DNA of 64,000 nucleotides from Minisyncoccota bacterium. Lineage in GTDB: Bacteria > Patescibacteriota > Minisyncoccia > Phycocordibacterales > UBA2100. Below are positions 11,588-37,587 of this stretch, piece by piece. A model generated the notes under the pieces. The model saw nothing but the letters and a program-made list of their open reading frames with translations. It ran no database searches and was not told the origin of the DNA. The position numbers were made by a program, and so were the translations under genes. Numbering within the stretch: the stretch's first letter is position 1; each line of letters opens with the position of its first letter. The stretch lies in the NCBI GenBank assembly GCA_043780835.1, contig JAYWCB010000011.1, forward strand, positions 26,767 to 90,766. The letters are read 5' to 3'.

Positions 11588-14500
11588 ATGTTCCCGAGTG
11601 GAATTCTCAAAAAAAGACGCGCGCAACGAGTGCTCGCGGCACTTTTGGTTTTGGGAATTCTTGCATACCTCGCATATTCTTCGAGCGATCTTGTTGGGGC
11701 ATTTGGTGGCACGCGCGAAGCACACATATTTTCTACATCGGTTTCCGCTCAGGGGTGGGATCATTCTGAACGTGCCATATCCCAAGACCTTCCGGCGAAT
11801 GCACCGCTTGAATCGTTCAATGACACAAATTCCGCAGTCGCGGTCATGGTTGCGGTACCGAATGCAAATTCTGGAGGCAGCGGAAACGACACGGGAACTA
11901 CCACGCCTCAAGAAATACACTCCGATGCGTCTTCGACGCCTACGATCGCAACTTCTTCTCCTTCCGAAACGACAGCGCCCCAACAGAGTGCACCCAATCC
12001 CGCGCAACCCGCTCAGATCGTCGCGCCAGCTACGCCGCCGGTTGTAACGCCACCCACAGATACGCCTGCGATCCATGAATCGATTCCGTCGCAAACGCCT
12101 CCGGCAACTGATCCGGGACCCACTTCGTTGATCAGACAATTTATTCATACAACTGAGGAGATTGTGTTTGCACCGTTCGTACCAACGGTCTTTGCAACGA
12201 CGAGCGATGCCTCATCTTCGCCGGACGCGCCGTCGCTTCCGCAAGATTCGACGTCGAAGGATGAATACGTAGCGAGCTGCTTCTTGCAGCAGACCGAGTG
12301 TCATACGCTCGCGTTTTCCGGATTCGGTGTTACGGGTGACATTACGAAAAAGCATTTCAAACACGCACTGGTCAATTTTTCGTTTGCCGATTCCGCGGGA
12401 CGTGAGAACGGAACGCTCGATGACAAGCTCGAGGTTCGCTATTACCACGCCGGTAAATGGAAACAGGCCGGCGAAATGTATCTCAATAAGGACCTTTCGA
12501 ATGAATCGAACGGTGGCTATTTCTCCGCACCGCTCGACGATATAACCGATTGGCAATCGCTCGACGATTTGAAAGTGGTCATAGAGTACGTGCGCGCCGA
12601 CACCGGTAAATCCACCCGTTTGTATCTGGACAGTCTGTGGATCAACGCGCAGTACACGGATACGGTATTGAATATTTTGAATGGTTCGGCAGATCAAGCG
12701 ACGGACTCATCCGATAATGTCTCCCTTTCATTACGGGGACAGGATGACGCGCATCGTACGCTTGTGCTCCCCGACGGAAACAATATTTCATTCAATTTCA
12801 CAGACGATCTCGATGACGGGCTGCCGATGCGTTCAGATCGAAAAGTGTATACGTCTGATGCCTCATCAAGCGACGGGTTATTCCGATCGACCGTATACGT
12901 GAGCGTCTCGAATCCGGGAGATAGCCCCGACTCGTTTACGTGGTCCGGAGCGTTTTTCGAGGGGAAGGGCAGTGTGACCGGCATTTCGCAGTTTTTACGC
13001 AATGTTGCGAGTTCCACAGAAGCATCGGTTCAGAACGACGTCACATATCTCTGCGATTCGCAGTGGCAGAGTGCAACGACTACTGGCAGTTACAGTTGCT
13101 CAGCGACAGGGGAAGTACATCAATGTTCATGGTTGAACGCGACGAAACAAAATTGTCTCGAGTCCGACGTGACGGTGGCGACAAGCAGCAGTGTCGCGTA
13201 TCTCAATGATTGGGTACCACAGGATATCGAGGTCGTGCAAAGTGCCGATGACACGAAACTACCCAACGGCTACAAAACGAAGAACCGCACTCGTAAATCA
13301 TTTGATATTCTACCGGGCCAAACATTGTATTTCCGTGTGCAGCTCGAAACCACACAGCCTGATCCGCAAAAGTTTTATCTGTATGTAAACGGCGGTACTA
13401 AATCCGGCGATCTTGAATCGGCACGTCTTAAAAAAGAAAGCGATCTCGTCGCACAAAAAAACCGGAAAGGCACCGTGCACAAAGGGGTGCCGCATGTGAA
13501 GCGTGCGCAACTCAATGACCAGCTGTCAGAAAAGACAGAATTCAATGCCGACGACCGGCCCTCGTTTGAATTTAAGTTCAAGACGCAGCGCGGATTATTT
13601 ACACGAATCAAAGACCGATTGCTCGGAACGAAGGTTGCGTTTGAAATCAAAGATACGAAAATCGAAGATGCCAACGGCGATGAGACACGGTTACCGGTCG
13701 ACATCAATTACGGAAGCGACGAGACCTGGAATCTGACGCTCGGCTCGCCGACGAGGGAAATTAAACCGGGAAAATACACGATCGATATGACAATCATCGA
13801 GGCGGGTCATACATACACCGATACGGTCGACTTCTTTTGGGGAGTGCTTGCAGAGAACACGGACAAAGCGACGTATGAACCTGGGGAAAACGCGCATTTT
13901 GAAATGGCTGCACTGACCGACAGCGGTAACACGATGTGCGATGCATCATTAGTGCTTTCCATCACCGCGCCCTCGGGCGAGATCACCGACGTGCCGGTGC
14001 AAAACGGACTCGGCTGCGGTATGAACAATGTGACTGATCAGCCTGACTATTTTGCAGACTACACAGTCGATGAAATCGGCACGTCGACGGTTACTCTTTC
14101 CCGTCTTGATCAGAATGGCTCCGTCATTAATTCCGTCACGGATGTGTTTTATGTGGAAGTGGCCCCCGCCCTTTCGGTATCTCGTACCGGTCCGACGCGT
14201 ATCTACCCAATCGCAACATATCCGATGTCGATTGAAGTCACGGCGAACGAGGCATTTACCGGAACCGTTACAGAAAGCCTGCCCGAAGGATTCACTGTCC
14301 CTGATGCCGGGGGTGCCACACTCACGCGAGACAAAGGCGTTGTGTATCTTACCTGGAACGTGTCGCTCGCGGTGGGCGAAACTGCGGATTTCTCCTATGT
14401 GTTTGACGCGCCCGATGCGAGCCCGTATCTCTACTTGCTCGGACCGCTCAAATTTACGCGCTCAGATGGGTCTGGTTTTGAAGAAGGCCGCACGTGGAAA

Positions 14501-17500
14501 GTTGCGTCCGACGCAGTGCCTGTTGCAACCGGTGTCGCATGGCTCACCGGCACCTCAACCACAAACGGAAATGATCTTAACAACAACACGCCATTCGCGC
14601 TGCAATTTGATAAATCAGAAGATTACGACGATGCGTATTATTCACACTCCACATCTACGAGTCCGTCGCGGCTCACGGTCAATATTGCCGGTGATTATTT
14701 GGTTGCGGTCAACGTACCGTGGGAGCGAGCAGACACGAGTAGAAATCCGACAACACTCGAAGTCGATATCCGTGTAAACGGCGCAAAACAAACCGTAGGC
14801 GTCGGTCGCAGTTACACGCTTACCCGAAGCGGCGTCGGTGAATCATCGAGTCACGTGTACGCACTCGTCAGAAATTTGAGCGTCGGTGACTACATTGAGG
14901 CATATTCGCACACAATCACAACAGTTACCGCGGGAGATGTCATGCTTGTAGGAACGCGCGCATCAATGTATGTGGAATATATTCCCTCGACTGAAACTGT
15001 GTACACCGCAACCGCAACGACAACCGTCGCGGATACAAATCTGAACACAACCGGTGCAACAAAAGTGGTGTGGTACGACGGACGCAAGGATACCGGATAT
15101 ACGCACGCAAATGCAACCACATCCTCACCGGAGAATGTCACGATTGCCGCGACGGGAGATTACATGACATTTATTAATATTCCGCTCAACGGCGCTGTTG
15201 CCGGAGAAAACGTGCGGGCACGCGTGGTACTCAACGGAGTCGTCGTGACCGGAGGAAATTTCAAGCAGGGCTATATTTCAAATTCGGCGGGAGCAACACA
15301 ATCATCGCTGCAATGGAGCGGTGTGGTACACGCAACATCTTCGAATTCGGTATTCACCGTCGATGTGCAGCAGGAAGGCGCCGCGGGGACCATGACCGTG
15401 GGAAGTGACGTCGGATCGTTGTTTATGCAAAAACTGCCGTCAACTGATGTATATTTCGGCAGCGGTCAAACGCTTTCAGGCGGTGGAACCAACTTCAACA
15501 TTACGCCGGCACAATCGATCCGGTATGCCACGGATACCGTTGCCGACCTTAATGCGTACACACACTCAACGACAACAAATTCCCACCAAGTTACGGTAAA
15601 AAAAGCAGGGGATTACCTCCTCGCGATTAATGATTCGCTCTCGGGCGCAGTCACACGCGGCAACATCATTATTCAAGTGCAGAAGAACGGTGTCGATGTA
15701 AGCGGAGCTGCGACAAAAAATCATTACATGTCAGGTGTGAGCACGCATTCGGAATATTCCGGATCGCTTGTCTTTATGCTGCGCGATCTGGCGGTGAACG
15801 ACGTCATTTCGGTAACAACGGTTCTCACAGGAACTGCAGGTACGGTAACCGCAGATGAGGGCGCATCGATTATGTTGTGGCGGAAAAATCCACAAAGCTT
15901 GTATCAGCAAAACACCTATCGTTGGTACGCAAACGTGAACGGGGAACCGCCCACGGATCCGTGGCCATCCGGCGCAGTCGATGTGCTTCAGGGTGATCCG
16001 ATCACCAACGGTATTCCCATAAAGTCGTCCGATGTAGTGCGTTTGCGGATGAACCTCCTTGCGGTTTCAACCACAACCGCATTTGCCGACTCATTTAAAC
16101 TGCAATACGCGGCCGGATCAACGTGCTCGGCGGCACTTTCTTGGACGGATGTAGGAGCAATCGGAAGCGGTGCAATCTGGCGGGGATATGATAACGCCGG
16201 CGTGACGAATAACACGACACTCTCTTCAACCACACTCACAAATTCAAATGTAAAAGAATCGTATGTCGAACAGAACCCCTCGACGACCACGCCCAACGGC
16301 GTGGGCACCGGACAAAATGCCGAGTACGACTGGACGCTGCAAGACAACGGCGCGACTGTCGGCGGAGATTATTGTTTCCGTATGGTGGACGCAACGACCG
16401 GTCAAGGACTCAAAAGTTATCTTGATTATCCGGCGCTCACCACAAACTCGACGCCGGACATACCGGTACTGGCGGCCCCGTTCGATAACGAGAAATCGAC
16501 CAGTACCACGCCATGGTTCGATTTTGCCGCTGCAGAAATAAACGGAGAGAATGTGCATTACGAAGTACAGGTTTCGACCGATCCCAATTTCGGTACAACG
16601 CTTTTGGATCGCGATTCGTTTACAAATTATGTCGAGTTCCAAAACACGACGTCTCCCGCGAATAAATCCCCGTTCAATCAATCCGATAAAATACGATTTA
16701 TTCCGACAACCGCGCTTTCAAACGGGACAACCTACTGGTGGCGAGTCCGGGCAAAAGACCCGACAGGCACCAACACCTACGGAAGTTGGTCGATATCGCG
16801 CAGTGTCACGGTGGATACCTCGGTGACTGTCTCCACATGGCATCAAACAACGCAGGCGCAGTTCCTCGAAGATCAATTGCTGAGTGCGACAACGACCATT
16901 GCCAATGACGTGCAAATCAGCGGCGTACTTGCAACCAGTACCGTCATTTCGCCACAGATTAATTTCAGTGGTATGACCTACGGTAATACGTGGGGATCAT
17001 TGACGTGGAACGATGCACACGTGCTCGGCACGATCATGTACCAGGTGCAATATTTTACATCGACCTCATCGTGGGCACTGATTCCTGATACGGATTTACC
17101 GGGCAATTCGCTCGGCACATCCACACAACCTATTTCACTTGCCAATCTCGATGTGACAACGTATGGCGCACTGCGCGTTGTTGCAAATATGACGAGAACA
17201 ACGGGAACTCCAACACTCTTTGACTGGACCGTAAACACCGCGCTCTCCGTCACGAAACCGGTGTTATCAAAACCCTTCGATAATGAAAAGACCGCAACAA
17301 CGACGCCAACATTCCAATTTATATCAACAGATCCACAGAGCGATCGTCTTCGGTATCAAGTCGAATGGTCGACCGATTCGGCGTTTGGTACCGGAACATT
17401 CCGCATATCCGGCACAAATGCGGGCTTTAGTAATACCGCCTCGTCAACCGACACCGATCCATTTACACAGAACAATACGATACAGTTTCAACTACAGAGT

Positions 17501-20500: not shown

Positions 20501-23500
20501 ACAACCGGAAACACAATTACCCCGGGAACATCCGGTTTCTATAACCTCACGTTCAACGGCTCGGGCGGTAACTGGGCATTCTCCGGCGCGACCGCTTCAA
20601 TTACAAATGACTTCACCGTCACCAACGGTACGATTACACTCCCGACCGGCACCACCACCATTGCCGGCAATTTTTCAAACAGCGCCACCTTCCAACATAA
20701 CAACGGCACCGTACTGCTTACCGCCGCTTCTGCAAAAACAATCACGACGGGGGCATCTACTTTTTACGACCTCACGTTTAACGGATCAGGTTCATGGTCG
20801 TTCACCGCAGCGAATGCCACATCATCACGCAATGTCACGATAACGACAGGCACCGTTACCATGCCGTCGGGTACCTTTGCAATCGGCGGATTCTTTGCAA
20901 AGAACGGCGGATCATTTACGCACAATAGCGGTACGCTCAAATTCACCGCAACAACCGCGCAAACACTGAAGCTCGGCGGATCAGATGCAAATAACCTCAC
21001 ATTCTCCGGAGTCGGTGGGTCGTGGAGTTTTGCCGATACAAATGCCACATCGACCGGCACGTTCAGGATAGAAAACGGCACGACGACGCTTCCATCGGGA
21101 CTCTTTACGGTTGCCGGCTCGTGGACAATCGCGGGTGGTGCATTCGTGCACAACAGCGGTACCGTGAAATTCAATGCTGGCTCGTCCGGTCAAACGATCC
21201 AGCCGAACGGCTCAAACTTCTTCAATATTGATTTCAATGGTGCGTCAGGCGGCTGGACCATTGCACAAAGCGCAACCTCGACCAATAATTTCACCCTCAC
21301 CAACGCCGCCACATTTACGCTCGGGAGCGGATTCTCGCTTGGTGTTGGCGGGACGTTTACGAATGCGGTTGCACCAGCAACAACAACATGGAGCGGTAGC
21401 ACTCTCACGCTGTATTCCGGCGGTACGTATTCGATCAACACAAAATCAAACGCGGGAGATACGTACGCGACGCTTGTCATCTCTTCAACGACGAAAATTT
21501 CAATGTGGAATTCTTCGGCTTCCACGTCCACTGTCTCAAGCGGAAGCTATCTATACTCACAAAACAATGCCGCCGTTTCCGGCGATCTCTACATTGCGGG
21601 TGTTTACACACGATCGTCCGGTACCGAATATTGGAGTTATGCGACAGACTTCGATGGTACTGCACTCGGCGGCTCATCGAGAAGAGTCAACGTGCGCGTC
21701 GCGACCTCGTCCACGCTCACGTTCTCCGGTGGGACGCTTCAGATTTTGGGTTCAGCAAGTGCGTCTACCACCATTGATAATCAGGGAAGCGGCGCATACG
21801 CGTTTGCGGTTTCAGGAGGCACGCTGAACGCGCAGTACTACCAGGTGCGCAACACTGATTTGAATGGACTCAATATTTCCGGCGCGACGTCTATTTCGTC
21901 GCTTTCTGATGGTGATTTCCAACTCGGCGTGAACGGCGGGACCATGATCAAAGTTGCGAGTACGGTCATTGATGCGAACGTTGCATTCCAAATTTTACGC
22001 AACCGCTTCGCCACGTCGTCGGGTGTGAGCGTTGGTTCAAACGTGACGGAAACCGGCGTGCCCGGTTCGTATTGGTGGTTCAGAAGCCACTACGGCAATT
22101 ATGCGGGAGAAAGCTTCGACAACGATCCCAAAGTAAGCGATGGCGGTAATCCCGGATACATTCGGTGGGATGACTCAAATCTCTCGATCAATATTTCCGG
22201 CCGCGTATATTCTGATCACGGTTCGACAGTGATCGGCAATCCGCCGTGCGATGGCGTAACACCGGTCGTGAAGCTCGTTGTAAATAGCGGCACCTCATAT
22301 ACCGCTGCGTGTAATGCAGGTACCGGTTTGTATACGATCTCCGGTGTGACCGTTGTGGGCGACGTTGTGCTCACTGCATTTTTGGATACCAACGGCGGCA
22401 CGCGCGCGGTAACCATTTCGCGTACGCCGAGCGCCGACATCGCGAATTTCGATCTCTATCAGGACGTGGTTATTGTCCGTCACGAAGACGTAACGCCGAT
22501 CACCATCGCACAACTCGCGTTTTACGACAGCACAAAAGATACGGACATTCCGTTTACGGCATCGACGAGTACACCGCCATCCACGCTCGCTGTGAAGCCG
22601 GGCACAGAATTGTATGTGTGGGCAGGCAAAACATTTACACCGGGCGGCAACGTGACATTGCAGAGCGGAGGAAACGGCAACATACGAGACGGGCGACTCA
22701 TGCTTGCAACGAGCTCTGCGTACCTTGCAACCGGATCCGAAACACACGCAATCGGAGGCGGCCTGTCACTTGCAAGCGGAGACACGTTCGGGACGGCAAG
22801 CTCAACATTTACATTCACCGCAACCACCACGAATAAATCATTCAATTCTTCAATCGCGCTCTCGTTTTACAATCTCGTGTTCAACGGAACCGGCGGCGGA
22901 TGGTCGCTCGATAGTGCAGCTACCACGAGCGTGACAAATTCGTTTGCAATGACTGCGGGCACACTTTCGGGGACGGGGGACATGAATATTACTTCGGGAA
23001 GCGCGACTGGCGGGGGCACCATCGCGATGACAGGCGGCACACTCCAACTGACGGGAAGCGGATCAATTGGCAGCGCCTCATCATGGACGTTCAACAACCT
23101 TATTCTTGGAAGTGGCGCGGTTGATTCAACATCAAAAACGGGTGTGGGCACCACGACCGTCAGCGGCATGCTGCGAATAACGTCCGGCCAAACGCTGAAC
23201 GCGAGCTCAACAAATTGGGTATTTACCGGCGGCGGGTCTCCGTTTGTGGTAAACGGTACATTCAATGTGCAATCCGCGCCGTTCTTCTTCACTTCGAATG
23301 CTTCAACCACCATTGCCGACGTCACGTATGCCATGCTCACGCTCGCACCGGCGAGCGCGGGAACACCGGTGTACACACTGAAAGGTGGAGCGCTCTCAGC
23401 AAGCGTGCTTACGCTCGGTGGTGTGAATCCCGTCCTTGTCGATGCAGACTTCAATGACCCGTCGATTGGAATAACCGGAACCGTGACGATTGGCGCGGGC

Positions 23501-26500
23501 AGCACCTTTAAAGCATCAAACACAGGCGCGTTTGATGTGGGAGGAAGTTGGCAAAACAATGGATCATTCCTGCATCAGAACGGTTCACTTAATTTCAATT
23601 CTTCTGCGACTGGAAACACAGTGAACCCGGGATCGAGTTCCTTCTACGATCTTTCATTCAATAATGTAGCTGGTGGATGGACTATCGCACAGAACGCAAC
23701 GACGTCTCGACATTTTACTCTCACCCGTGCGACGAATTTCACTCTCGCGAGCGGCAAGTCGCTCTCAGTCGGCGGCACGTTTACCAACGGTGTCGGCGGT
23801 GCTGCTACTACGTGGGCAACAACCACTCTTTCTCTCACATCGGGTACCGCGTACGCGATGAATACAAAATCTGTTTCAGGAGATGTATACGGCACGCTCT
23901 CGGTAAGCTCCAACACCAATGTGAATATGTGGAATTCGAGCGCGGCAACAACGACTGTCGCATCCGGCAGTTCACTGTATTCGCAAAACAATGCAAGCGT
24001 GTCCGGTGATCTCTACATATGGGGCGATTACTCGCGCTCGTCGGGCACTGAGTATTGGGATTACGCCACCGACTTCGACGGCACGTCGCTTGCAACGTCT
24101 ACGCCTCGGGCGGTCACCGTGCGCATCGCAACCTCCTCAACACTCACGTTCACAGGGGGAACGCTCGAAATACTCGGAACCACAACTGCGACCACGTCGA
24201 TTGCAGTACAAGGAAGCGGGCGCTACGCGTTCTCAGTTTCCGGCGGCACGTTGAATGCGCAGTATTACAAAATCCGCGACACCGATATAAACGGACTCAA
24301 TATTACCGGCACGACGGTAGTTACTTCGCTCTCCGACGGTGATTTCCTCCTTGCATCCAACGGAGGTACCACCATGACCGTTGCCGCATCGGTCATCGAT
24401 GCGAATCCGCTCAAGATTATTATGAGAAACAATTTCGCAACGACGTCTGTCATTACCGGCGGATCAAACGTAAAAGAATCGGGCGCTCCTGCAAGTTCGT
24501 GGAAGTTCAATCTTCATTACGGAAATTTCGCGGGCGAGGCATACGATAATGATCCCGCCGGCGATCCGGGATATCTGCGATGGGACGATAGTTCGTCGCA
24601 AATCACCATATCCGGAAAGGTGTATTCCGACGAAGGCACAACCACGAGCGCGGTGTGTAACGGCGTCACGCAAGTCGTTCGTTTGAAAATTCAGGGTGCA
24701 GGAATACTCACCTCATCGTGCAGTGGCACGGGTCTCTATTCGATTCCGGGAGTGGCGTATAATCCCGGCGACGTTATTACGGTGTATCTCGACACCAACG
24801 GCGGCGTACGTGCCGCTACCGTATCACTTGATCCGATCAGTAGTATCGCGAATTTTGATCTCTACGAAAACCGCGTCATTGTTCGGCACGAAGACGTCAA
24901 TCCGATCACGATTGCAAAACTGGCGACCTACGATTCCGACAACGATACCGACATTCCATACAATGCGACTGTGGGGGCACCAAATACGCTCGTGCTTTTG
25001 CCCAATACGAAGCTCATTGTGTGGGACGGCAAAATATTTACACCCGGCGGCAATGTGACGCTGCAAAGCGGCGGATCCGGGAGCGCCTGGGACGGCACGC
25101 TCGAGCTGCGCACCAATGCAACGTGGATCGGTGCGAATAATCAATCGCATTCTATCGGCGGCAGCCTCAGCGTGGATAACGGAGCGTTGCTCACGAGTGC
25201 ATCCTCCACGTTTACCTTTACCGCCACAACATCCGGTAAAACGATTGCGCTGCAGAATTCATCGCTCTTCACTGCTGTCTTCAACGGCGGCGGGGGCAAC
25301 TGGTCGTTCCCGAGCGGTTCTGCGATTGTGCAAAATGATTTCTCGATTGCAACGGGGACTGTTACATTCGGCGTCGGCACCACCACCATCGGCGGATCGT
25401 TGTTCAATAGCGGCGGTATATTCCAGCACAATAACGGTACGATCGTGTTGAACGCGTCCTCAACCGGAAAATCGATAAAGGCAAACGGCAATTCGTTCTA
25501 TAATCTCACGCTCAATGGCAGCGGCGGCGCGTGGACCTTTAGCGATACAAATGCCACCTCGTCGAACAACTTTATTGTTACCAACGGTTCCACCACGCTT
25601 CCGGTGGGTATCTTTGCGGTCGGAGCAGTATTCGACAATTCAGGAACGTTCACTGCCGGCGTCGGTACCGTGAAGCTCATTGCAACCGCGAGTGGAAAAA
25701 ATCTGAAAGCCGGAGGTTCATCGTTCTACAACCTTACACTCGACGGCATTGGTGGTGTCTGGAGCTTCCTTGATGCGAACGCCACGACCACCCGCGACTT
25801 CACAATTACCAACGGATCAACGACGCTTCCGAGTAGCACGTTCAACGTCGGGGGCTCATTTGTGAATGCGGGTGCATTCAGTGCAGGCACCGGTCTCGTT
25901 ACGTTGAGCGCAACGACGACGGGTAAATTAATAACCGCAAGCTCATCCACGTTCTACGATCTCACACTCAATAGCGCAGCCGGCGGTTGGACGATAACGG
26001 GCAACGCCACATCCTCAAATAATTTCTCATTGACGAATGCCGCAAGCTTTACGCTCACCAGCGGTAAAACCCTCGCAGTCGGCGGCGCCTTTACCAACGG
26101 TGTCGGAGGTGCGCCAACAACATGGGCAACCACCACGCTCTCTTTGTATTCGGGTACCGGATATAGCATGAACACAAAAACGACCGGCGGTGATACATAT
26201 GGCACACTGCTCGTCGCATCGAGCACAAACATTCGATTGTGGAATTCCAGTGCAGCAACCACAACCGTTCTTGGCTCCGGCTCCGTATATTCGCAAAACA
26301 ACGCCAATGTTCCCGGCGATCTCTATATATGGGGCACCTATGCGCATTCCTCCGGTACAGAGTATTGGGATTACGCGACCGACTTCGACGGCACCGCACT
26401 CGGCGGATCGTCACGCGCGGTCAATGTGCGTATTGCCACGTCATCCTCGCTCAGCTTTAGCGGCGGAACACTCGAGGTGTTGGGTACCGCGTCGGCTACG

Positions 26501-29212
26501 ACGACCATACAAAATCAAGGCCTCGGCCGTTACGCGTTTGCGATTTCCGGCGGCACCGTAAATGCGCAGTACTATCAAGTACGTAACACCGATCCGAGCG
26601 GTATTAATTTCACAGGATCACCGACGCTCACGTCGCTCGATGCGGGAGATCTCGAGCTCGGTGTTTCCGGCGGCGCTCTCATAACAGTCGCCGGCTCAGT
26701 GATCGATGCCAACGCGAGCAAAGTGATTACCAATGTACGCTTTGCGACGTCGACGGGCATACTTGCCGGAAACAACATCGTGCGAACCGGATCTCCGATC
26801 TCGGCGTGGACCTTTACGAGTCACTACGGAAACATTGCCGGCGAAGCCTACGACACTGACGGTGTTGACGCCTGCGGCGCATTACGATGGAGCGATTCCG
26901 TCTGTCTGTTTGTAAGTCAGGAACATTACCGATGGCGCAATGACGACGGCGGCGACGGTGCACCGAACACGGAATGGTACAGCCTCTCATGGGCAAAGCG
27001 CGAAAAAATCGCAATCTCGAATCCGAATGGTTCCGTACTCACCAGTCAGCCGGTTAAGATAATCATTCCGTACACGTCGTCGATGCAGAGTAACTTCAGT
27101 GATCTGCGTTTCACCGATTCATCCGGTACGACAACCATCCCGTATTGGATAGAAAAATACACCGCATCTGCCTCATCAACAGTGTGGGTAAAAGTACCGT
27201 CGCTGCCTGCATCGGGTTCGGCAAATGTGTATATGTATTATGGCAACAATGCCGTTACCGACGGATCAAGCGGCACGACGACGTTTAAGACCTTCGAAGA
27301 TTTTGAATCAAACAGCATCTCGGGATACTCAGGAAATACAACAATGTTCCAGACCGCGGTTACGTTCAATCACAACCACTCCTACGGGCTCGATGCCGGC
27401 TCAAGTGCTGCGCTGAAAACTACGACGGGACTCTATAAAACAGGTTCACTGATTGCGCAGGGCGACACCCTTCGCTTCTATCAGTATGTCGATTCCACAC
27501 AAACGGATGAACCGTGTACGCTCTTTGCGGTGGGAGGATCCGGATCGAACTACGCGGTGTGTCTCGATCAGTACCCGACAGCAAAAGTCGTAATCTCAAA
27601 GGATGTGACGGCCAACGATCAAAGTGGAACCGTACTCGCGTCTACCACCGTTACGTATACGACCGGGTGGTACGAGGTGGTCGTTGATTGGTTGGCGACA
27701 AATGTAATTAACGTAAACGTGTATACAGACACCGGCACACTCTTCGCCACGACAAGCGTTACCGATTCTTCCCATACTGCCGCGGGAGGCTACGGATTTT
27801 CATACTGGTTCATGCATGGCGGATGGGATTTCCTGAGCGTGCGTCCGTACATTGCGAGTCAGCCCACGTATGTGATCGGCACCGAGCAGGTGAGTGGCGG
27901 TGCTTCGTGGAAGGTTGCCGAAGACACACTCGTGCCGAATCTTTCTGCCGGGCAAAACGTGCGCTTACGTTTCTCGATTCAAGACTCGGGTGCATCGGTC
28001 TTTGGTCAACTGTACCGATTGCAGTACGCACCGAAGGGCGTCTCTTTGAATTGTGAATCAGTCGCGCACAGTAATTACAGCGACGTTCCCACAACCTCAG
28101 GCGCCGGTTGTGGTTCCGCTGCCGCGTGTATGACAACCACGGCCCAATACTCCGACGGTGCGAGCACCGCCGGATTGCTTTCGTATCCTGCGGCGATGAG
28201 TTTTATAAATGGTCACGTGGTATCAGATCCATCGCAACAAACGGCGAGCTCAACAATTGCCGCATCGGCAGCTAGCGAAGTCGAATATAATCTCCAGATA
28301 AAAGCGGCGGCAACGGCAAATGCGTACTGCTTCCGCGTTGCAAACGATGGTCCCAATAGCAATTCGAATTTCGATCTCGACAACTACGCGCACGTGGCCG
28401 AAGCAACGATGGCGTACGCGCCGACAATCTCAAATTTTAACTGGCCGCTCAGCTACATTCTCTCGGGCATCGCGCTCACCGAAGGCACGACGACCACTGT
28501 CTCTGCGACGGGTACCGTCACGGACTATAACGGCTACGCTGATATCGTGAGTGCGACATCATCTATCTATCGCTCGGGCGTCGGTTCGTCGTGCACATCG
28601 AATAGCAACAACTGCTATCCGATTCCTGCGTGCACGCTCTCGAATTGCGCGGGTACTTCGTGCACGATTACATGCTCGGCGAATGTACAGTATCTTGCGG
28701 ATCCGACGGACGTGGGCAGTGCAAATAGTGCAGAAAATTGGCTCGCATCGTTGCGCATCCAGGATTCAATCGGATTATCTGCCACAAGCAGTACCTCGGG
28801 TGCAGAAATAAATACACTCTTCGGACTCACCGTGAATACCGGCGCGATCGACTTCGGAGCGCTCTCCGTCGGTACCGATACCGGCACATTCAATGCAACG
28901 TCCACGGTCGTGAATACCGGCAATGCAATCATCGATATTCAACTTTCAGGCACCGATCTTGCGGGATCAAATGGTTCTCTTGCAGTCGGACAGCAGCGGT
29001 ATGCGACGAGCACATTTACCTATGGGTCGTGCTCCGTGTGTCAGTTCTTGACCGGTAGTTCGACTCCGGTCGATGTGAATATTCCCAAAGCAACCACAAC
29101 GGCTACGTCCACTCAAACCCAGACGAGCCTCTTCTGGGGCATCAACGTGCCCATTGGAACGACTGCTGAATTGCACCAGGGAACCAATACCTTCATCGCG
29201 GTACACAATTAA
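11588..29212 (+). CDS. Giant cell-surface protein (5,874 aa from ATG 11588): signal anchor, FN3-like and beta-helix-like repeats, 2.4-kb tandem repeats, C-terminal DUF2341/LamG-like region
   Basis: A single uninterrupted 17.6-kb ORF, trimmed to MFPSGILKKRRAQRVLAALLVLGILAYLAY (TM anchor), with a Pro/Thr-rich linker. Two FN3-like modules end in TYWWRVRAxDPTG. Dozens of roughly 100-aa Gly/Thr/Asn-rich modules (..NNGT..L.A.S.GKTI....S.FYNLT.NGSGG.W.F..) suggest a parallel beta-helix. The C-terminal HYRWRNDDGGDG...SDLRFTDSSGTTTIPYWIEKY...VWVKVPSLPASGSANVYMYYGN matches the DUF2341 pattern, followed by a concanavalin/LamG-like region. Confidence 0.85.
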   Translation: MFPSGILKKRRAQRVLAALLVLGILAYLAYSSSDLVGAFGGTREAHIFSTSVSAQGWDHSERAISQDLPANAPLESFNDTNSAVAVMVAVPNANSGGSGNDTGTTTPQEIHSDASSTPTIATSSPSETTAPQQSAPNPAQPAQIVAPATPPVVTPPTDTPAIHESIPSQTPPATDPGPTSLIRQFIHTTEEIVFAPFVPTVFATTSDASSSPDAPSLPQDSTSKDEYVASCFLQQTECHTLAFSGFGVTGDITKKHFKHALVNFSFADSAGRENGTLDDKLEVRYYHAGKWKQAGEMYLNKDLSNESNGGYFSAPLDDITDWQSLDDLKVVIEYVRADTGKSTRLYLDSLWINAQYTDTVLNILNGSADQATDSSDNVSLSLRGQDDAHRTLVLPDGNNISFNFTDDLDDGLPMRSDRKVYTSDASSSDGLFRSTVYVSVSNPGDSPDSFTWSGAFFEGKGSVTGISQFLRNVASSTEASVQNDVTYLCDSQWQSATTTGSYSCSATGEVHQCSWLNATKQNCLESDVTVATSSSVAYLNDWVPQDIEVVQSADDTKLPNGYKTKNRTRKSFDILPGQTLYFRVQLETTQPDPQKFYLYVNGGTKSGDLESARLKKESDLVAQKNRKGTVHKGVPHVKRAQLNDQLSEKTEFNADDRPSFEFKFKTQRGLFTRIKDRLLGTKVAFEIKDTKIEDANGDETRLPVDINYGSDETWNLTLGSPTREIKPGKYTIDMTIIEAGHTYTDTVDFFWGVLAENTDKATYEPGENAHFEMAALTDSGNTMCDASLVLSITAPSGEITDVPVQNGLGCGMNNVTDQPDYFADYTVDEIGTSTVTLSRLDQNGSVINSVTDVFYVEVAPALSVSRTGPTRIYPIATYPMSIEVTANEAFTGTVTESLPEGFTVPDAGGATLTRDKGVVYLTWNVSLAVGETADFSYVFDAPDASPYLYLLGPLKFTRSDGSGFEEGRTWKVASDAVPVATGVAWLTGTSTTNGNDLNNNTPFALQFDKSEDYDDAYYSHSTSTSPSRLTVNIAGDYLVAVNVPWERADTSRNPTTLEVDIRVNGAKQTVGVGRSYTLTRSGVGESSSHVYALVRNLSVGDYIEAYSHTITTVTAGDVMLVGTRASMYVEYIPSTETVYTATATTTVADTNLNTTGATKVVWYDGRKDTGYTHANATTSSPENVTIAATGDYMTFINIPLNGAVAGENVRARVVLNGVVVTGGNFKQGYISNSAGATQSSLQWSGVVHATSSNSVFTVDVQQEGAAGTMTVGSDVGSLFMQKLPSTDVYFGSGQTLSGGGTNFNITPAQSIRYATDTVADLNAYTHSTTTNSHQVTVKKAGDYLLAINDSLSGAVTRGNIIIQVQKNGVDVSGAATKNHYMSGVSTHSEYSGSLVFMLRDLAVNDVISVTTVLTGTAGTVTADEGASIMLWRKNPQSLYQQNTYRWYANVNGEPPTDPWPSGAVDVLQGDPITNGIPIKSSDVVRLRMNLLAVSTTTAFADSFKLQYAAGSTCSAALSWTDVGAIGSGAIWRGYDNAGVTNNTTLSSTTLTNSNVKESYVEQNPSTTTPNGVGTGQNAEYDWTLQDNGATVGGDYCFRMVDATTGQGLKSYLDYPALTTNSTPDIPVLAAPFDNEKSTSTTPWFDFAAAEINGENVHYEVQVSTDPNFGTTLLDRDSFTNYVEFQNTTSPANKSPFNQSDKIRFIPTTALSNGTTYWWRVRAKDPTGTNTYGSWSISRSVTVDTSVTVSTWHQTTQAQFLEDQLLSATTTIANDVQISGVLATSTVISPQINFSGMTYGNTWGSLTWNDAHVLGTIMYQVQYFTSTSSWALIPDTDLPGNSLGTSTQPISLANLDVTTYGALRVVANMTRTTGTPTLFDWTVNTALSVTKPVLSKPFDNEKTATTTPTFQFISTDPQSDRLRYQVEWSTDSAFGTGTFRISGTNAGFSNTASSTDTDPFTQNNTIQFQLQSADVLTNGTTYWWRVRAIDPTGGNAFSQWSAGNSFTVDTSLAVSTWFQTTQAQFAKDTFIRTIASTSNSVISSVDTGKIAIFRTATAGEALTTSVFTHGFDTTVRRDDVYALSGTTTVGLKKGHYAVLYSTRFDSTGGTNRTDAQTNLNIAGVNSPIGWSSSYLRRLNGAQEGFNAGGGIIYAPADSTQVLLQSFRTDANVAATETRVASTTLQFVKLDDAWDYVRLGKKVKQTGPTSASWLTISYDRQDELDTGSFDHTVGSGNITLKSVGHYLIFANTYGSLATGSTIPSQVKQKIILNGADVEGSFTTVYMNGNANGNAVYQGAAAIGMIIESTTTNTVLNVQLARSIGTSAWSIDADNTGAYVDRTGVTIVKIPDGSFVRLQNSSAININTATTSAYVWDTENEKDASFTHSNSTNNSRITATVAGDYLLFGNLFAQGANLTDGEPGFSWAKNAALIPYGVSGTYSANITTSDAGNWSGMIMPSVVNGDFFEFMSEAYGLAGSMPGDRKALEGMRIASLTEADTNPVTVESQSINFSDGTGPKWATFSWSATQPASTSLKMQLEYLNASGTYALVPDNAGFIAGYLNSVGTTSTSTINISGLSRITYATIRGLATFTCGNNNCPTLDDWTASWAQGIQISGTAKKFDETTNVTSGTVAVAVNGVLQAGKTGTISAGVWTIANVTAFTGDVITVYISGAADPNEAVAVSKYLTTGDVTGMELYEDHLSLGSNDNPTLTNADIDLYDNSTSGNEDIFDNVTAGPDLLVCAITGCSGNKLYIRVGTTFEPNVSLSRSVTTKDISIKGILIADGNSINVSGSWADSGQFAKGNSTVNFTATSTTESVDFTGATSTSFNNATFGSSGTATWNLLSALDVTGTLTINNGTLSQNGNHLITLSGDLTIGSSGAFTKGTASTTFNGTTSKIWTDSSASKQDLGDVFIDGAAKTVTLGSSVKATNITIGADDTFNLGGANTVTVNGNWTNNNAFVPQTGTVLFAAMTTGNTITPGTSGFYNLTFNGSGGNWAFSGATASITNDFTVTNGTITLPTGTTTIAGNFSNSATFQHNNGTVLLTAASAKTITTGASTFYDLTFNGSGSWSFTAANATSSRNVTITTGTVTMPSGTFAIGGFFAKNGGSFTHNSGTLKFTATTAQTLKLGGSDANNLTFSGVGGSWSFADTNATSTGTFRIENGTTTLPSGLFTVAGSWTIAGGAFVHNSGTVKFNAGSSGQTIQPNGSNFFNIDFNGASGGWTIAQSATSTNNFTLTNAATFTLGSGFSLGVGGTFTNAVAPATTTWSGSTLTLYSGGTYSINTKSNAGDTYATLVISSTTKISMWNSSASTSTVSSGSYLYSQNNAAVSGDLYIAGVYTRSSGTEYWSYATDFDGTALGGSSRRVNVRVATSSTLTFSGGTLQILGSASASTTIDNQGSGAYAFAVSGGTLNAQYYQVRNTDLNGLNISGATSISSLSDGDFQLGVNGGTMIKVASTVIDANVAFQILRNRFATSSGVSVGSNVTETGVPGSYWWFRSHYGNYAGESFDNDPKVSDGGNPGYIRWDDSNLSINISGRVYSDHGSTVIGNPPCDGVTPVVKLVVNSGTSYTAACNAGTGLYTISGVTVVGDVVLTAFLDTNGGTRAVTISRTPSADIANFDLYQDVVIVRHEDVTPITIAQLAFYDSTKDTDIPFTASTSTPPSTLAVKPGTELYVWAGKTFTPGGNVTLQSGGNGNIRDGRLMLATSSAYLATGSETHAIGGGLSLASGDTFGTASSTFTFTATTTNKSFNSSIALSFYNLVFNGTGGGWSLDSAATTSVTNSFAMTAGTLSGTGDMNITSGSATGGGTIAMTGGTLQLTGSGSIGSASSWTFNNLILGSGAVDSTSKTGVGTTTVSGMLRITSGQTLNASSTNWVFTGGGSPFVVNGTFNVQSAPFFFTSNASTTIADVTYAMLTLAPASAGTPVYTLKGGALSASVLTLGGVNPVLVDADFNDPSIGITGTVTIGAGSTFKASNTGAFDVGGSWQNNGSFLHQNGSLNFNSSATGNTVNPGSSSFYDLSFNNVAGGWTIAQNATTSRHFTLTRATNFTLASGKSLSVGGTFTNGVGGAATTWATTTLSLTSGTAYAMNTKSVSGDVYGTLSVSSNTNVNMWNSSAATTTVASGSSLYSQNNASVSGDLYIWGDYSRSSGTEYWDYATDFDGTSLATSTPRAVTVRIATSSTLTFTGGTLEILGTTTATTSIAVQGSGRYAFSVSGGTLNAQYYKIRDTDINGLNITGTTVVTSLSDGDFLLASNGGTTMTVAASVIDANPLKIIMRNNFATTSVITGGSNVKESGAPASSWKFNLHYGNFAGEAYDNDPAGDPGYLRWDDSSSQITISGKVYSDEGTTTSAVCNGVTQVVRLKIQGAGILTSSCSGTGLYSIPGVAYNPGDVITVYLDTNGGVRAATVSLDPISSIANFDLYENRVIVRHEDVNPITIAKLATYDSDNDTDIPYNATVGAPNTLVLLPNTKLIVWDGKIFTPGGNVTLQSGGSGSAWDGTLELRTNATWIGANNQSHSIGGSLSVDNGALLTSASSTFTFTATTSGKTIALQNSSLFTAVFNGGGGNWSFPSGSAIVQNDFSIATGTVTFGVGTTTIGGSLFNSGGIFQHNNGTIVLNASSTGKSIKANGNSFYNLTLNGSGGAWTFSDTNATSSNNFIVTNGSTTLPVGIFAVGAVFDNSGTFTAGVGTVKLIATASGKNLKAGGSSFYNLTLDGIGGVWSFLDANATTTRDFTITNGSTTLPSSTFNVGGSFVNAGAFSAGTGLVTLSATTTGKLITASSSTFYDLTLNSAAGGWTITGNATSSNNFSLTNAASFTLTSGKTLAVGGAFTNGVGGAPTTWATTTLSLYSGTGYSMNTKTTGGDTYGTLLVASSTNIRLWNSSAATTTVLGSGSVYSQNNANVPGDLYIWGTYAHSSGTEYWDYATDFDGTALGGSSRAVNVRIATSSSLSFSGGTLEVLGTASATTTIQNQGLGRYAFAISGGTVNAQYYQVRNTDPSGINFTGSPTLTSLDAGDLELGVSGGALITVAGSVIDANASKVITNVRFATSTGILAGNNIVRTGSPISAWTFTSHYGNIAGEAYDTDGVDACGALRWSDSVCLFVSQEHYRWRNDDGGDGAPNTEWYSLSWAKREKIAISNPNGSVLTSQPVKIIIPYTSSMQSNFSDLRFTDSSGTTTIPYWIEKYTASASSTVWVKVPSLPASGSANVYMYYGNNAVTDGSSGTTTFKTFEDFESNSISGYSGNTTMFQTAVTFNHNHSYGLDAGSSAALKTTTGLYKTGSLIAQGDTLRFYQYVDSTQTDEPCTLFAVGGSGSNYAVCLDQYPTAKVVISKDVTANDQSGTVLASTTVTYTTGWYEVVVDWLATNVINVNVYTDTGTLFATTSVTDSSHTAAGGYGFSYWFMHGGWDFLSVRPYIASQPTYVIGTEQVSGGASWKVAEDTLVPNLSAGQNVRLRFSIQDSGASVFGQLYRLQYAPKGVSLNCESVAHSNYSDVPTTSGAGCGSAAACMTTTAQYSDGASTAGLLSYPAAMSFINGHVVSDPSQQTASSTIAASAASEVEYNLQIKAAATANAYCFRVANDGPNSNSNFDLDNYAHVAEATMAYAPTISNFNWPLSYILSGIALTEGTTTTVSATGTVTDYNGYADIVSATSSIYRSGVGSSCTSNSNNCYPIPACTLSNCAGTSCTITCSANVQYLADPTDVGSANSAENWLASLRIQDSIGLSATSSTSGAEINTLFGLTVNTGAIDFGALSVGTDTGTFNATSTVVNTGNAIIDIQLSGTDLAGSNGSLAVGQQRYATSTFTYGSCSVCQFLTGSSTPVDVNIPKATTTATSTQTQTSLFWGINVPIGTTAELHQGTNTFIAVHN
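21160..26900 (+). repeat. Intragenic tandem repeat of about 2.3-2.4 kb, ~2.4 copies, inside the giant gene
   Basis: Three collinear blocks begin near 21160, 23580 and 25890. Each encodes ...WTIAQ/TGNAT.S..F.LT.A..FTL.SG..L.VGG.FTNGVGGA.TTW...TL.L.SG..Y.MNTK...GD.YGTL.V.S.T......WNSSA.T.TV... ...YWDYATDFDGT.L...........GGTLE.LG.......GSG.YAF..SGGT.NAQYY..R.TD..G.N..G. The third copy is truncated where the DUF2341 region begins. Confidence 0.7.
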
Positions 29213-29908: not shown

Positions 29909-29944
29909 TACGTGGGGATGGCAGGAGCGCGGGCATAGAGTACA

Positions 29945-30289: not shown

Positions 30290-30292
30290 TTT

Positions 30293-30336
30293 TTTTCCAC
30301 GCGATAAAAATAGTGTGCGTACTCGGGTGATACAAT
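30293..30336 (+). promoter_or_regulatory. Candidate promoter for the FN3-repeat gene: DnaA-box-like TTTTCCACG plus extended -10 TGaTACAAT
   Basis: TTTTCCACG (30293..30301) lies 29 nt upstream of TACAAT (30331..30336), which is preceded by TG. The ATG at 30367 follows. Confidence 0.3.
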
Positions 30337-30366
30337 TTAACGGTGCGGAGTGCACTGTTTTTCGAT

Positions 30367-31806: not shown

Positions 31807-31810
31807 CGAT

Positions 31811-33157: not shown

Positions 33158-33290
33158 TATGCCTGTCACACGAAACGGCATGAATATCAGAGATATTGCC
33201 CTGTATACTTTCCTTATCTCGTATGAATTTAGACTCGATAACTACTTCGAAACGCGCTTCATAGCGCAATGTCGTTTCGTGTGAACAGGT

Positions 33291-34499: not shown

Positions 34500-34541
34500 C
34501 GGTGCTTCATAAACGCCTCATTCAAGCCACAAAAACACCAG

Positions 34542-34586: not shown

Positions 34587-34598
34587 TTCTTCTAAGGT

Positions 34599-37579: not shown

Positions 37580-37587
37580 TCGCGCAT

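What the first reader, a model, noticed from the sequence alone, without database searches (positions are those of the whole stretch)
11588..29212. 17.6-kb single ORF encoding a 5,874-aa multi-module surface protein
One gene occupies 27% of the window. Its architecture is a signal anchor, a Pro/Thr linker, two FN3-like modules (TYWWRVRAxDPTG), a very long array of roughly 100-aa Gly/Thr/Asn beta-solenoid-like modules, and a C-terminal DUF2341 + LamG-like lectin region ending in a domain shared with a neighbouring gene. Giant proteins of this kind are a hallmark of CPR and DPANN genomes and are proposed host-interaction factors. The next ORF starts 4 nt after its stop, and an ABC exporter lies 2.6 kb downstream.
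Basis: seen in the sequence. Interest (0 to 1): 0.7.

Follow-up and report, generated by a model that had tools for sequence, protein, structure and literature searches.

The report
Giant surface fibre protein of Paceibacteria
The 17.6-kb gene is real and encodes a 5,874-residue membrane-anchored surface fibre with a sugar-binding-type tip; it belongs to a family of equally giant proteins in the ultrasmall Paceibacteria (CPR bacteria), so it is a well-supported new member of an already known kind, not a new kind of system.

Summary
One ORF runs from the ATG at 11588 to the stop at 29210-29212 (5,874 aa). Its internal DNA repeats are only 66-81% identical, so repeat collapse is unlikely. A 5,894-aa protein from an independent metagenome aligns with it end to end at 49% identity. 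In 46 of 50 related genomes the orthologous ORF stays open for more than 4,090 codons.

The parts in order:
- one N-terminal membrane helix
- a Pro/Thr/Ser linker
- about 2,400 aa of beta-rich modules, including two FN3-like domains and six ~150-aa repeats
- three 730-940-aa supermodules predicted as right-handed beta-helices, with a 76-aa period rather than ~100 aa

The last two tip domains recur in the gene at 34599-36506.

Relatives come from Paceibacteria/Parcubacteria (CPR). The gene heads a conserved cluster: FN3 protein, MacB-type ABC ATPase and permease, a 635-aa tip paralogue, a WxLIP-like protein and a dockerin protein. This order is kept in 48 of 60 loci.

The most likely function is a long adhesive or spacer fibre with a glycan-binding tip. 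Host binding is not tested. Giant DUF2341 proteins of Patescibacteria are already in the literature, so interest is moderate.

The parts
11588..29212 (+). Giant gene, 5,874 codons plus stop.
   Evidence: The ORF is continuous. Orthologue P0152 (5,894 aa) aligns end to end at 49% identity.
11618..11695 (+). N-terminal hydrophobic helix (aa 11-36) after a KKRRAQR stretch: signal anchor or Sec signal.
   Evidence: It is the only membrane-like hydrophobic segment; the one other 19-residue window above threshold lies in a soluble beta region. Three family members share no conserved AxA cleavage motif; that it stays uncleaved is inference.
11885..12283 (+). Pro/Thr/Ser-rich linker (aa 100-232).
   Evidence: Composition is P 17%, T 17%, S 14%. 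It is the least conserved module against P0152, at 30% identity.
12284..14542 (+). N-terminal beta-rich region (aa 233-985) with no family assignment; weak MG2-like signal at aa 758-801.
   Evidence: Pfam MG2 gives E 0.001, below cutoff. The word-indexed database returns only two homologues, and P0149 is colinear with this region.
14543..15907 (+). Three ~150-aa repeats (aa 986-1440).
   Evidence: Self-BLAST and a 151-aa autocorrelation peak define them; they are aligned. A TNF/C1q-like jelly roll is only hinted at (Pfam TNF E 0.022) and PDB holds no sequence match.
15908..16462 (+). Beta-sandwich-type 'YRW' module, copy 1 (aa 1441-1625).
   Evidence: It is weakly related to ORF 49489-50826 (E 4e-4). 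The same sequence signature recurs in the tip.
16463..17722 (+). Two FN3-like modules (aa 1626-1780 and 1891-2045) with a ~110-aa module between them.
   Evidence: The two copies are 49% identical. They match Pfam Ig_Rha78A_N. The YWWRVRA motif lies at aa 1716 and 1981.
17765..19072 (+). Three more ~150-aa repeats (aa 2060-2495).
   Evidence: They are defined by self-BLAST and the repeat alignment. The tblastn comparison gives no match for aa 2117-2493 in the split homologue L002.
19496..22324 (+). Supermodule 1 (aa 2637-3579): small beta-sandwich, 76-aa beta-helix repeats, capping helix part.
   Evidence: Supported by self-BLAST and the 76-aa period.
22325..24700 (+). Supermodule 2 (aa 3580-4371), predicted right-handed beta-helix.
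   Evidence: The AF2 model has mean pLDDT 81. Most Foldseek PDB matches are beta-helix proteins, but none is significant (best E 0.013).
24701..26899 (+). Supermodule 3 (aa 4372-5104).
   Evidence: Supported by self-BLAST and the 76-aa period.
26900..29209 (+). Conserved C-terminal tip (aa 5105-5874). It holds DUF2341 (Pfam match aa 5169-5244), a ConA-like lectin/CBM jelly roll (about aa 5250-5425), a 'YRW' beta-sandwich, a Cys-rich Ig-like domain and a terminal Ig-like domain.
28541..29200 (+). Last two tip domains (aa 5652-5871), shared with the protein encoded at 34599-36506.
   Evidence: BLASTP gives 32% identity, E 2e-17.
29216..29908 (+). 230-aa membrane-helix protein, mostly charged and helical in appearance. 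Its start is 4 nt after the giant gene's stop.
   Evidence: It hits no family. It is found only in the closer relatives.
30343..31806 (+). Membrane-anchored protein with several FN3 domains; conserved cluster member.
   Evidence: It matches Pfam fn3 and Pur_ac_phosph_N. Synteny is shown.
31811..34499 (+). MacB/Lol-type (FtsX-family) ABC transporter: a 448-aa ATPase with a ~220-aa C-terminal extension, and a 402-aa permease with a MacB periplasmic core domain.
   Evidence: Pfam assigns both parts. NCBIfam gives hits only below every equivalog cutoff. The pair lies downstream in 56 of 60 loci.
34599..36506 (+). 635-aa membrane-anchored protein that carries the same two terminal domains as the giant protein.
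   Evidence: Domain sharing is shown; conserved position.
36584..38727 (+). Two genes: a 331-aa WxLIP/DUF916-like protein with signal peptide and C-terminal membrane helix, and a 379-aa DUF4215/Ig/dockerin protein. Both are conserved cluster members.
   Evidence: Supported.
9950..11443 (+). Upstream neighbour: 497-aa protein with a cohesin-like N-domain and a C-terminal membrane helix. It may belong to the same surface island; a link to the giant protein is not shown.
   Evidence: Pfam Cohesin E 4e-6. It has paralogues at 38715-41441.

Best explanation
The gene encodes a giant fibrillar cell-surface protein of a Paceibacteria (Patescibacteria/CPR) bacterium.

Proposed mechanism, with steps marked shown or inferred:
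- Export is through Sec. The protein stays tethered by its single N-terminal helix, or is retained in some other way after cleavage (inferred).
- The Pro/Thr/Ser linker crosses the wall (inferred).
- About 20 beta-sandwich-type modules and three long right-handed beta-helix rods form a stiff stalk (partly predicted). From generic domain dimensions its length is on the order of 100-150 nm (inferred).
- The stalk displays a conserved 770-aa tip: a DUF2341 sandwich, a concanavalin-A-like lectin/CBM jelly roll and three further beta-sandwiches (predicted with high confidence).
- The tip most likely binds a glycan or another surface polymer on a partner cell or on the cell's own envelope (inferred).

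The gene is the first of a conserved surface-protein cluster. That cluster also encodes an FN3 protein, a MacB-type ABC transporter, a shorter membrane protein with the same two terminal domains, a WxLIP-like protein and a dockerin protein. These probably act with the giant protein in assembling or operating the envelope structure. This is inferred from gene order only.
For: Real, intact gene:
- The ORF is continuous.
- There are no tandem DNA repeats, and internal repeats are 66-81% identical.
- P0152 (5,894 aa, independent JGI contig) aligns as one HSP, residues 10-5872 against 6-5892, at 49% identity. Every module is 96-100% aligned.
- Of the best 150 cluster representatives, 30 are at least 5,000 aa long.
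- In 46 of 50 genome loci the ORF is open across the full 10 kb upstream.

Surface location:
- There is one N-terminal hydrophobic helix and no membrane-like segment elsewhere.
- The 34 Cys residues are mostly closely spaced.
- Both predicted structures are all-beta.

Stalk:
- Supermodule 2 has AF2 pLDDT 81.
- Its structural matches are mostly beta-helix adhesins, tailspikes and lyases: tapirin, Ag43, IgA1 protease, EspC, Hap.

Tip:
- AF2 pLDDT is 94.2.
- Foldseek matches chains of Ig-like domains in adhesins and alpha-2-macroglobulins.

Conservation:
- The tip is found at 40-61% identity in 122 species-representative genomes named Paceibacteria, Adler-, Kaiser-, Sung-, Lloyd- and Nomurabacteria.

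Gene cluster:
- FN3, ABC and FtsX genes lie downstream in 56 of 60 loci. All six cluster genes occur in the same order in 48 of 60.

Faster change than its neighbours:
- In the closest relative, L054, the ABC ATPase is 94% and the permease 92% identical, but the giant protein only 62%.

Literature:
- Giant Patescibacteria proteins with DUF2341 or FhaB domains, and giant membrane proteins of Vampirococcus, have been proposed as adhesion or host-contact factors (PMC11809585; 10.1101/2020.11.10.374967).
Against: - No ligand, localisation or expression data exist.
- The beta-helix assignment has no statistically significant structural match (best E 0.013).
- About 2,400 aa of the N-terminal half have no fold assignment at all.
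- Pfam detects no LamG or lectin family. A ConA-like fold also occurs in glycoside hydrolases and lyases.
- The whole cluster and the exact module count are conserved across many lineages. That fits a core envelope structure at least as well as a host-specific adhesin.
- Whether the N-terminal helix is cleaved is unknown.
Confidence: 0.65

Rival explanations
1. It is a core structural element of the cell envelope, such as a wall-spanning fibril, spacer or S-layer-like coat. It would be built or maintained by the co-encoded MacB-type ABC system and would not bind hosts.
For: The cluster is conserved in the same order across many Paceibacteria lineages. Module number and length are preserved almost without gaps in a 49%-identical orthologue, as expected if length matters. 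The surrounding 50 kb is full of other envelope proteins carrying cohesin, dockerin or WxLIP-like domains.
Against: A lectin/CBM-type domain at the far end of a long stalk is the usual layout of adhesins such as SraP and Aap. The giant protein diverges much faster than the linked transporter genes. It has no S-layer or wall-binding family hits.
Confidence: 0.2
2. It is a surface-anchored polysaccharide-degrading enzyme. The beta-helix rods would be lyase or hydrolase domains and the ConA-like domain a substrate-binding or catalytic module.
For: The structural matches include PL6 alginate lyases, GH110, exopolygalacturonase and tailspike depolymerases. They also include GH16, GH43 and levanase modules.
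Against: All beta-helix matches are insignificant (E at least 0.013). No glycoside hydrolase, lyase or Beta_helix family is detected. The helix is built from regular 76-aa repeats, as in structural rods. The best ConA-like match is a non-catalytic binding module, CBM66.
Confidence: 0.07
3. It is a contact-dependent toxin or effector delivery filament of the FhaB/CdiA type, or a type IV pilus tip adhesin of the PilY1/DUF2341 type.
For: Beta-helix rods resemble TPS exoproteins such as EtpA. DUF2341 has been described in large proteins of archaeal type IV pilus loci and likened to PilY adhesins (PMC4858521). FhaB and DUF2341 domains co-occur among giant Patescibacteria proteins (PMC11809585).
Against: There is no TPS domain, FhaB repeat or toxin family hit, and the C-terminus is Ig-like rather than a toxin. 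The N-terminus has no class III (prepilin) signal. None of the scanned larger ORFs of the 64-kb window matches a pilus-assembly family.
Confidence: 0.04
4. It is an assembly artefact or a decaying pseudogene.
For: In one relative (L002, GCA_041389025.1) the colinear region is split into three ORFs of 2,998+, 2,498 and 983 aa. Many homologues in databases are contig-end fragments.
Against: The window ORF has no stop in 5,884 codons. Its repeats are too diverged to collapse during assembly. An independent orthologue is colinear end to end. In 46 of 50 loci the ORF stays open.
Confidence: 0.01

Closest known systems
Giant (>4,000 aa) Patescibacteria proteins with DUF2341 and/or FhaB domains (reported with Patescibacterium danicum, PMC11809585)
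   Same: Same phylum and same size class. DUF2341 is present. A surface adhesion or host-contact role has been proposed.
   Different: That paper found no full-length homologues for its own proteins. This protein instead belongs to a family with end-to-end orthologues and a fixed gene neighbourhood. No FhaB family is detected here.
Giant membrane proteins of the CPR predator Vampirococcus lugosii (10.1101/2020.11.10.374967)
   Same: They are very large membrane-anchored proteins rich in adhesion-type domains, proposed to form the fibrous cell surface.
   Different: They come from a different class (Absconditabacteria), are shorter (1,392-4,163 aa) and have a different domain set. Homology was not tested here.
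Beta-helix adhesins: tapirins of Caldicellulosiruptor; autotransporter and TPS passengers (Ag43, Hap, EtpA)
   Same: They share the predicted right-handed beta-helix rod, and these are among the best structural matches.
   Different: The matches are not significant. This protein has no autotransporter barrel, TPS domain or TpsB partner. It has an N-terminal anchor in what own knowledge suggests is a single-membrane lineage. It carries three rods in one chain plus a lectin-type tip.
Gram-positive stalk-and-lectin adhesins (SraP serine-rich repeat adhesin, Aap)
   Different: Those are anchored at the C-terminus by LPXTG with the lectin near the N-terminus. Here the anchor is N-terminal and the lectin C-terminal. 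There is no LPXTG and no serine-rich repeat region.
Giant RTX adhesins exported by type I secretion (LapA, MpIBP)
   Same: They are megadalton-scale repetitive surface adhesins with ligand-binding modules near the far end and an ABC transporter encoded nearby.
   Different: There are no RTX repeats and no C-terminal secretion signal family hit. The neighbouring ABC system is MacB/FtsX-type, not HlyB-type. An N-terminal Sec-type signal is present.
SPEARE proteins of DPANN Nanohaloarchaea (own knowledge, Hamm et al. 2019; not checked here)
   Same: They are >5,000-aa surface proteins of ultrasmall episymbionts, proposed to mediate host contact.
   Different: SPEARE proteins carry protease and nuclease-type domains. 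None is detected here.

Membership tests
Paceibacteria giant-protein family (this protein, P0152 and relatives) | End-to-end colinear alignment with other members. | tested here: met
   A single HSP covers residues 10-5872 against 6-5892 of P0152 at 49% identity. All 20 modules are 96-100% aligned.
Paceibacteria giant-protein family (this protein, P0152 and relatives) | Conserved downstream cluster: FN3 protein, MacB-type ABC ATPase, FtsX permease, 635-aa paralogue, WxLIP-like protein, dockerin protein. | tested here: met
   The window has this order. It is kept in 48 of 60 loci that have enough downstream sequence.
DUF2341 (PF10102) proteins | Pfam match above the gathering score. | tested here: met
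   84-89 bits against a cutoff of 23.4, at aa 5169-5244.
LamG / concanavalin-A-like lectin superfamily | Sequence match to a LamG or lectin family model. | tested here: not met
   No Laminin_G or lectin model is hit, even at E up to 1 on short segments.
LamG / concanavalin-A-like lectin superfamily | Jelly-roll fold superposable on known members. | tested here: met
LamG / concanavalin-A-like lectin superfamily | Carbohydrate or calcium binding. | not testable with these tools
   This needs glycan arrays or binding assays.
Fibronectin type III domains | Match to an FN3-type family model. | tested here: inconclusive
   PF00041 is not hit. The related Ig_Rha78A_N model is hit above cutoff for copy 2 (32.7 against 27.4) and below cutoff for copy 1 (17.4). 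No structure was predicted for these modules.
Right-handed beta-helix adhesins (autotransporter / two-partner secretion) | Beta-helix fold. | tested here: inconclusive
   The AF2 model (pLDDT 81) shows short regular strands. Most Foldseek matches are beta-helix proteins, but the best E is 0.013.
Right-handed beta-helix adhesins (autotransporter / two-partner secretion) | Autotransporter barrel, or a TPS domain with a TpsB partner. | tested here: not met
   No such family is found in the protein or its neighbours.
RTX adhesins with type I secretion | RTX nonapeptide repeats and a HlyB-type ABC with a membrane fusion protein. | tested here: not met
   There is no RTX family hit. The adjacent ABC is MacB/Lol/FtsE-like with a separate FtsX-type permease.
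Type IV pilus-associated adhesins (PilY1-like, archaeal DUF2341 proteins) | Class III signal peptide or location in a pilus locus. | tested here: not met
   The N-terminus MFPSGILKKRRAQRVLAALLVLGILAYLAY has no prepilin motif. None of the scanned larger ORFs in the window matches a pilus-assembly family.
Cohesin-dockerin assemblies | A cohesin or dockerin module in the protein. | tested here: not met
   HMMs built from the window's own three dockerins and four cohesin-like domains do not hit the giant protein.
LPXTG/sortase-anchored adhesins | C-terminal LPXTG motif, hydrophobic helix and charged tail. | tested here: not met
   The protein ends in ...GTNTFIAVHN and has no C-terminal hydrophobic segment.
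Targets of diversity-generating retroelements | A template/variable repeat pair and a nearby reverse transcriptase. | tested here: not met
   No repeat links the gene to another site in the window. No reverse transcriptase appears among the scanned ORFs.

The most novel reading that the evidence does not exclude
The giant protein may be more than a passive adhesin. It could be the working filament of a class-wide, dedicated envelope machine. In this reading the co-conserved MacB-type (mechanotransmitting) ABC transporter, the FN3 protein, the 635-aa protein with the same two terminal domains, and the WxLIP-like and dockerin/cohesin proteins together assemble, anchor or actuate a ~100-nm fibre. 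That would be a new surface apparatus specific to Paceibacteria.
Probability: 0.2. Interest if true: 0.7.

Novelty: new member of a known kind. Interest (0 to 1): 0.4.

Why it matters
Paceibacteria are among the most abundant uncultured ultrasmall bacteria, and how they contact other cells is unknown. This gene takes up roughly 17.6 kb of a genome that, from own knowledge, is probably under 1 Mb, so it represents a large investment. The work here adds three things to 'another giant CPR protein':
- It is a true family with full-length orthologues.
- Its well-conserved tip has a lectin/CBM-type fold.
- It sits at the head of a gene cluster with a MacB-type ABC transporter, conserved in order across many genera.

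This gives concrete targets, namely the recombinant tip and the cluster partners, for binding studies and cryo-tomography. It does not overturn current views.

Tried and rejected
- Whole-protein homology searches failed.
- Exact look-ups of two window proteins found nothing on record, so the source sample stays unknown.
- Tandem Repeats Finder found no arrays.
- NCBIfam found nothing in the giant protein.
- Sequence searches of PDB returned nothing useful. This covered both halves of the protein, the tip profile and the 150-aa repeat profile.
- My idea that the six 150-aa repeats are TNF/C1q-like jelly rolls rests on one Pfam hit at E 0.022.
- A dockerin or cohesin module in the giant protein was sought and not found.
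- A diversity-generating retroelement was sought and not found.
- Promoter and terminator scans gave no more sites than shuffled sequence.
- One Pfam call failed because of a wrong frame.
Full report
**1. The observation**

The window holds one open frame from 11558 (GTG) to the stop at 29210-29212. The first ATG is at 11588, which gives 5,874 residues with no internal stop. By my own arithmetic, a random frame of 5,884 codons stays open with probability near 1e-123. The ATG start is supported by the N-terminus of the orthologue P0152, which aligns from its residue 6 to residue 10 here.

Tandem Repeats Finder reports nothing in the gene. The longest internal DNA repeats are 293 nt in three copies at 66-71% identity, and none exceeds 81%.

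**2. Anatomy**

The protein is rich in Thr (13.8%), Ser (11.5%), Gly (10.1%) and Asn (6.8%). It has only 34 Cys, mostly closely spaced. The only membrane-like hydrophobic segment is at aa 11-36, after a KKRRAQR stretch. A Pro/Thr/Ser linker follows at aa 100-232.

Self-comparison resolves these modules:
- six ~150-aa repeats, at aa 986-1440 and 2060-2495
- two FN3-like modules, at aa 1626-1780 and 1891-2045, 49% identical, each carrying YWWRVRA
- two copies of a ~110-aa module
- three supermodules, at aa 2637-3579, 3580-4371 and 4372-5104

The supermodules are 55-67% identical over their shared parts. Each contains a small beta-sandwich, a variable number of 76-aa repeats and a ~320-aa capping part.

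Pfam recognises very little, even on short segments at E up to 1. It finds DUF2341 at aa 5169-5244 (E about 1e-24). It finds Ig_Rha78A_N on the two FN3-like modules, with only the second above cutoff. NCBIfam finds nothing. No chain in PDB is detectably related by sequence.

**3. Predicted structures**

The C-terminal 775 aa were folded with 69 homologues and gave mean pLDDT 94.2. The model is all-beta and forms a string of about five domains.

- the thrombospondin C-terminal domain
- peanut lectin, ERGIC-53 and VIP36
- an archaeal legume-type lectin
- phage receptor-binding and Dit carbohydrate-binding modules
- the lectin modules of the adhesins Aap and SraP

Foldseek matched the remaining domains to chains of Ig-like domains in adhesins, integrin legs and bacterial alpha-2-macroglobulins.

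Supermodule 2 was folded with 33 related sequences and gave pLDDT 81. Its PDB matches are mostly right-handed beta-helix proteins: tapirin, Ag43, IgA1 protease, EspC, Hap, tailspikes and PL6 lyases. None is significant; the best E is 0.013. The beta-solenoid reading is plausible but not proven.

**4. Relatives and taxonomy**

The tip has 219 database homologues. About 70 of them cover it fully at 40-60% identity. Every named one is a MAG of Minisyncoccia, Paceibacterota, Parcubacteria or Kaiserbacteria. The supermodule has 33 homologues from the same groups, plus a few short contigs binned elsewhere.

An exhaustive profile-free search with aa 1440-2639 found 1,732 cluster representatives at E up to 1e-3 and 314 at E up to 1e-30. 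Of the best 150, 30 are at least 5,000 aa and 8 at least 7,000 aa.

P0152 (5,894 aa, on a 29.5-kb JGI contig) aligns with the window protein in a single segment over residues 10-5872 at 49% identity. Each of 20 modules is 96-100% aligned, at 30-57% identity. Architecture and length are thus under selection. The gene is neither a chimera nor a pseudogene.

A scan of one genome per species found relatives of the tip in 122 genomes. The names include Paceibacteria, Adlerbacteria, Kaiserbacteria, Sungbacteria, Lloydbacteria and Nomurabacteria. Many TPA assemblies carry a generic 'Saccharibacteria' label. In 46 of the 50 loci that have 10 kb upstream, the frame stays open to the locus edge, which means more than 4,090 codons. 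Many contigs start inside the gene, which is the usual fate of giant genes in short-read assemblies. In one genome (L002) the colinear region is split into three ORFs.

**5. Neighbourhood**

The genes downstream of the giant gene, in order:
- a 230-aa membrane-helix protein whose start is 4 nt after the stop
- a membrane-anchored FN3 protein
- a 448-aa ABC ATPase with a C-terminal extension
- a MacB-type FtsX-family permease
- a 635-aa membrane protein whose last ~265 residues match the last two tip domains of the giant protein (32% identity, E 2e-17)
- a 331-aa protein related to WxL-interacting proteins
- a DUF4215/Ig/dockerin protein

The ABC pair scores below every NCBIfam equivalog cutoff. 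It is distinct from the true FtsE/FtsX pair at 62109-63970.

This order recurs in L001 and L002. FN3, ABC and FtsX genes are downstream in 56 of 60 loci with enough sequence. All six genes are present in the same order in 48 of 60.

In the closest relative, L054, the ABC ATPase is 94% identical, the permease 92% and the FN3 protein 85%. The giant protein is only 62% identical and the 635-aa protein 60%. The surface proteins therefore change much faster than the transporter. This is common for exposed proteins and is not by itself evidence of host adaptation.

The giant protein has no dockerin or cohesin module. No retroelement-type repeat pair touches it.

**6. Most likely mechanism**

What is shown: a real, conserved, very long, all-beta (as far as modelled) protein with one N-terminal membrane helix, a well-conserved C-terminal unit containing a lectin/CBM-type fold, and a conserved set of envelope-protein and ABC-transporter neighbours.

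What is inferred:
- The protein is exported by Sec and held at the membrane by its N-terminus.
- The linker crosses the wall.
- The modules form a stalk. If three helix turns make up each 76-aa repeat, at 0.48 nm per turn, and each sandwich domain adds about 4 nm, the stalk would be on the order of 100-150 nm.
- The tip binds a glycan or other polymer on another cell or in the envelope.

I put 0.65 on this fibre-with-binding-tip model. The main rival (0.2) is a core structural envelope fibre with no host-binding role. The class-wide conservation of the cluster and of the module count fits that rival well. Enzyme, toxin-delivery or pilus-tip, and artefact readings get 0.07, 0.04 and 0.01.

**7. 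Comparison with known systems and novelty**

Giant surface proteins are already described for Patescibacteria. Among 2.1 million NCBI proteins of the phylum, 149 exceed 4,000 aa, and 82 of these carry FhaB and/or DUF2341 domains, proposed to act in adhesion (PMC11809585). Vampirococcus carries giant membrane proteins proposed to form its fibrous surface (10.1101/2020.11.10.374967). DUF2341 has been noted in large proteins of archaeal type IV pilus loci (PMC4858521).

This protein fails the defining tests for five groups: autotransporter/TPS adhesins, RTX/T1SS adhesins, LPXTG adhesins, pilus-tip adhesins and cellulosome components (see the membership table). In layout it works most like stalk-and-lectin adhesins.

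It is a new member of a known kind. What this analysis adds is the full-length family, the fold of the tip and the conserved cluster with a MacB-type ABC transporter. Interest is 0.4. The most novel reading still open is that the cluster encodes a dedicated Paceibacteria surface machine in which the ABC transporter assembles or actuates the fibre (probability about 0.2).

Noticed in passing
window 9950-11443, 37588-41441, 57551-59266: There are four proteins with cohesin-like N-terminal domains (9950-11443, 38715-39695, 39692-40678, 40659-41441 on the minus strand). There are three with dockerin modules (37588-38727, 40659-41441, 57551-59266). This suggests a cohesin-dockerin surface assembly in a CPR bacterium. 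The protein at 40659-41441 carries both modules.
   Followed up: partly
window 36584-37579, 50859-52214, 52211-53536, 55037-56158: Four paralogous proteins resemble WxL-interacting proteins (DUF916) of Firmicutes; 36584-37579, whose sequence was read, has a signal peptide and a C-terminal membrane helix. Only 55037-56158 reaches the Pfam WxLIP_PGBD model (E 8e-9). The others are linked to it by BLAST.
   Followed up: partly
window 42751-47694: A second large ORF of 1,647 aa has no Pfam or NCBIfam hit. It contains an internal 167-nt repeat at 89% identity (44299-44465 and 44938-45104). It also coincides with the strongest negative GC skew in the window, -0.17 at 44-46 kb.
   Followed up: no
window 62109-63970: A genuine FtsE (268.5 bits against a cutoff of 264.85) and an FtsX-like permease lie here (197.8 bits, below the 225-bit cutoff). 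They are separate from the MacB-type ABC pair next to the giant gene.
   Followed up: yes
L054 (CAYYEX010000003.1) against window 29216-36506: The closest genome has transporter genes 92-94% identical to the window's. Its giant protein, the 635-aa paralogue and the 230-aa protein are only 62%, 60% and 48% identical. About 3.8 kb lie between the giant gene and the FN3 gene there, against 1.1 kb in the window.
   Followed up: partly
L002 (GCA_041389025.1, JAWKSP010000002.1): The colinear giant region is split there into ORFs of 2,998+, 2,498 and 983 aa, with frame changes at the junctions. The tblastn comparison also shows no match there for window aa 2117-2493. Whether these are real separate genes or sequencing frameshifts was not resolved.
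   Followed up: partly
window 1825-3546: The GatA-type amidase ORF is 573 aa, but the Amidase domain starts only at residue 123. The ~120-aa N-terminal part may be an overcalled GTG start or a fused segment.
   Followed up: no
window 31811-33157: The ABC ATPase of the conserved cluster has a ~220-aa C-terminal extension after the nucleotide-binding domain. The extension hits no family.
   Followed up: no
window 56704-57549: A protein with an FGE-sulfatase-like (formylglycine-generating enzyme) domain lies within the surface-protein island.
   Followed up: no
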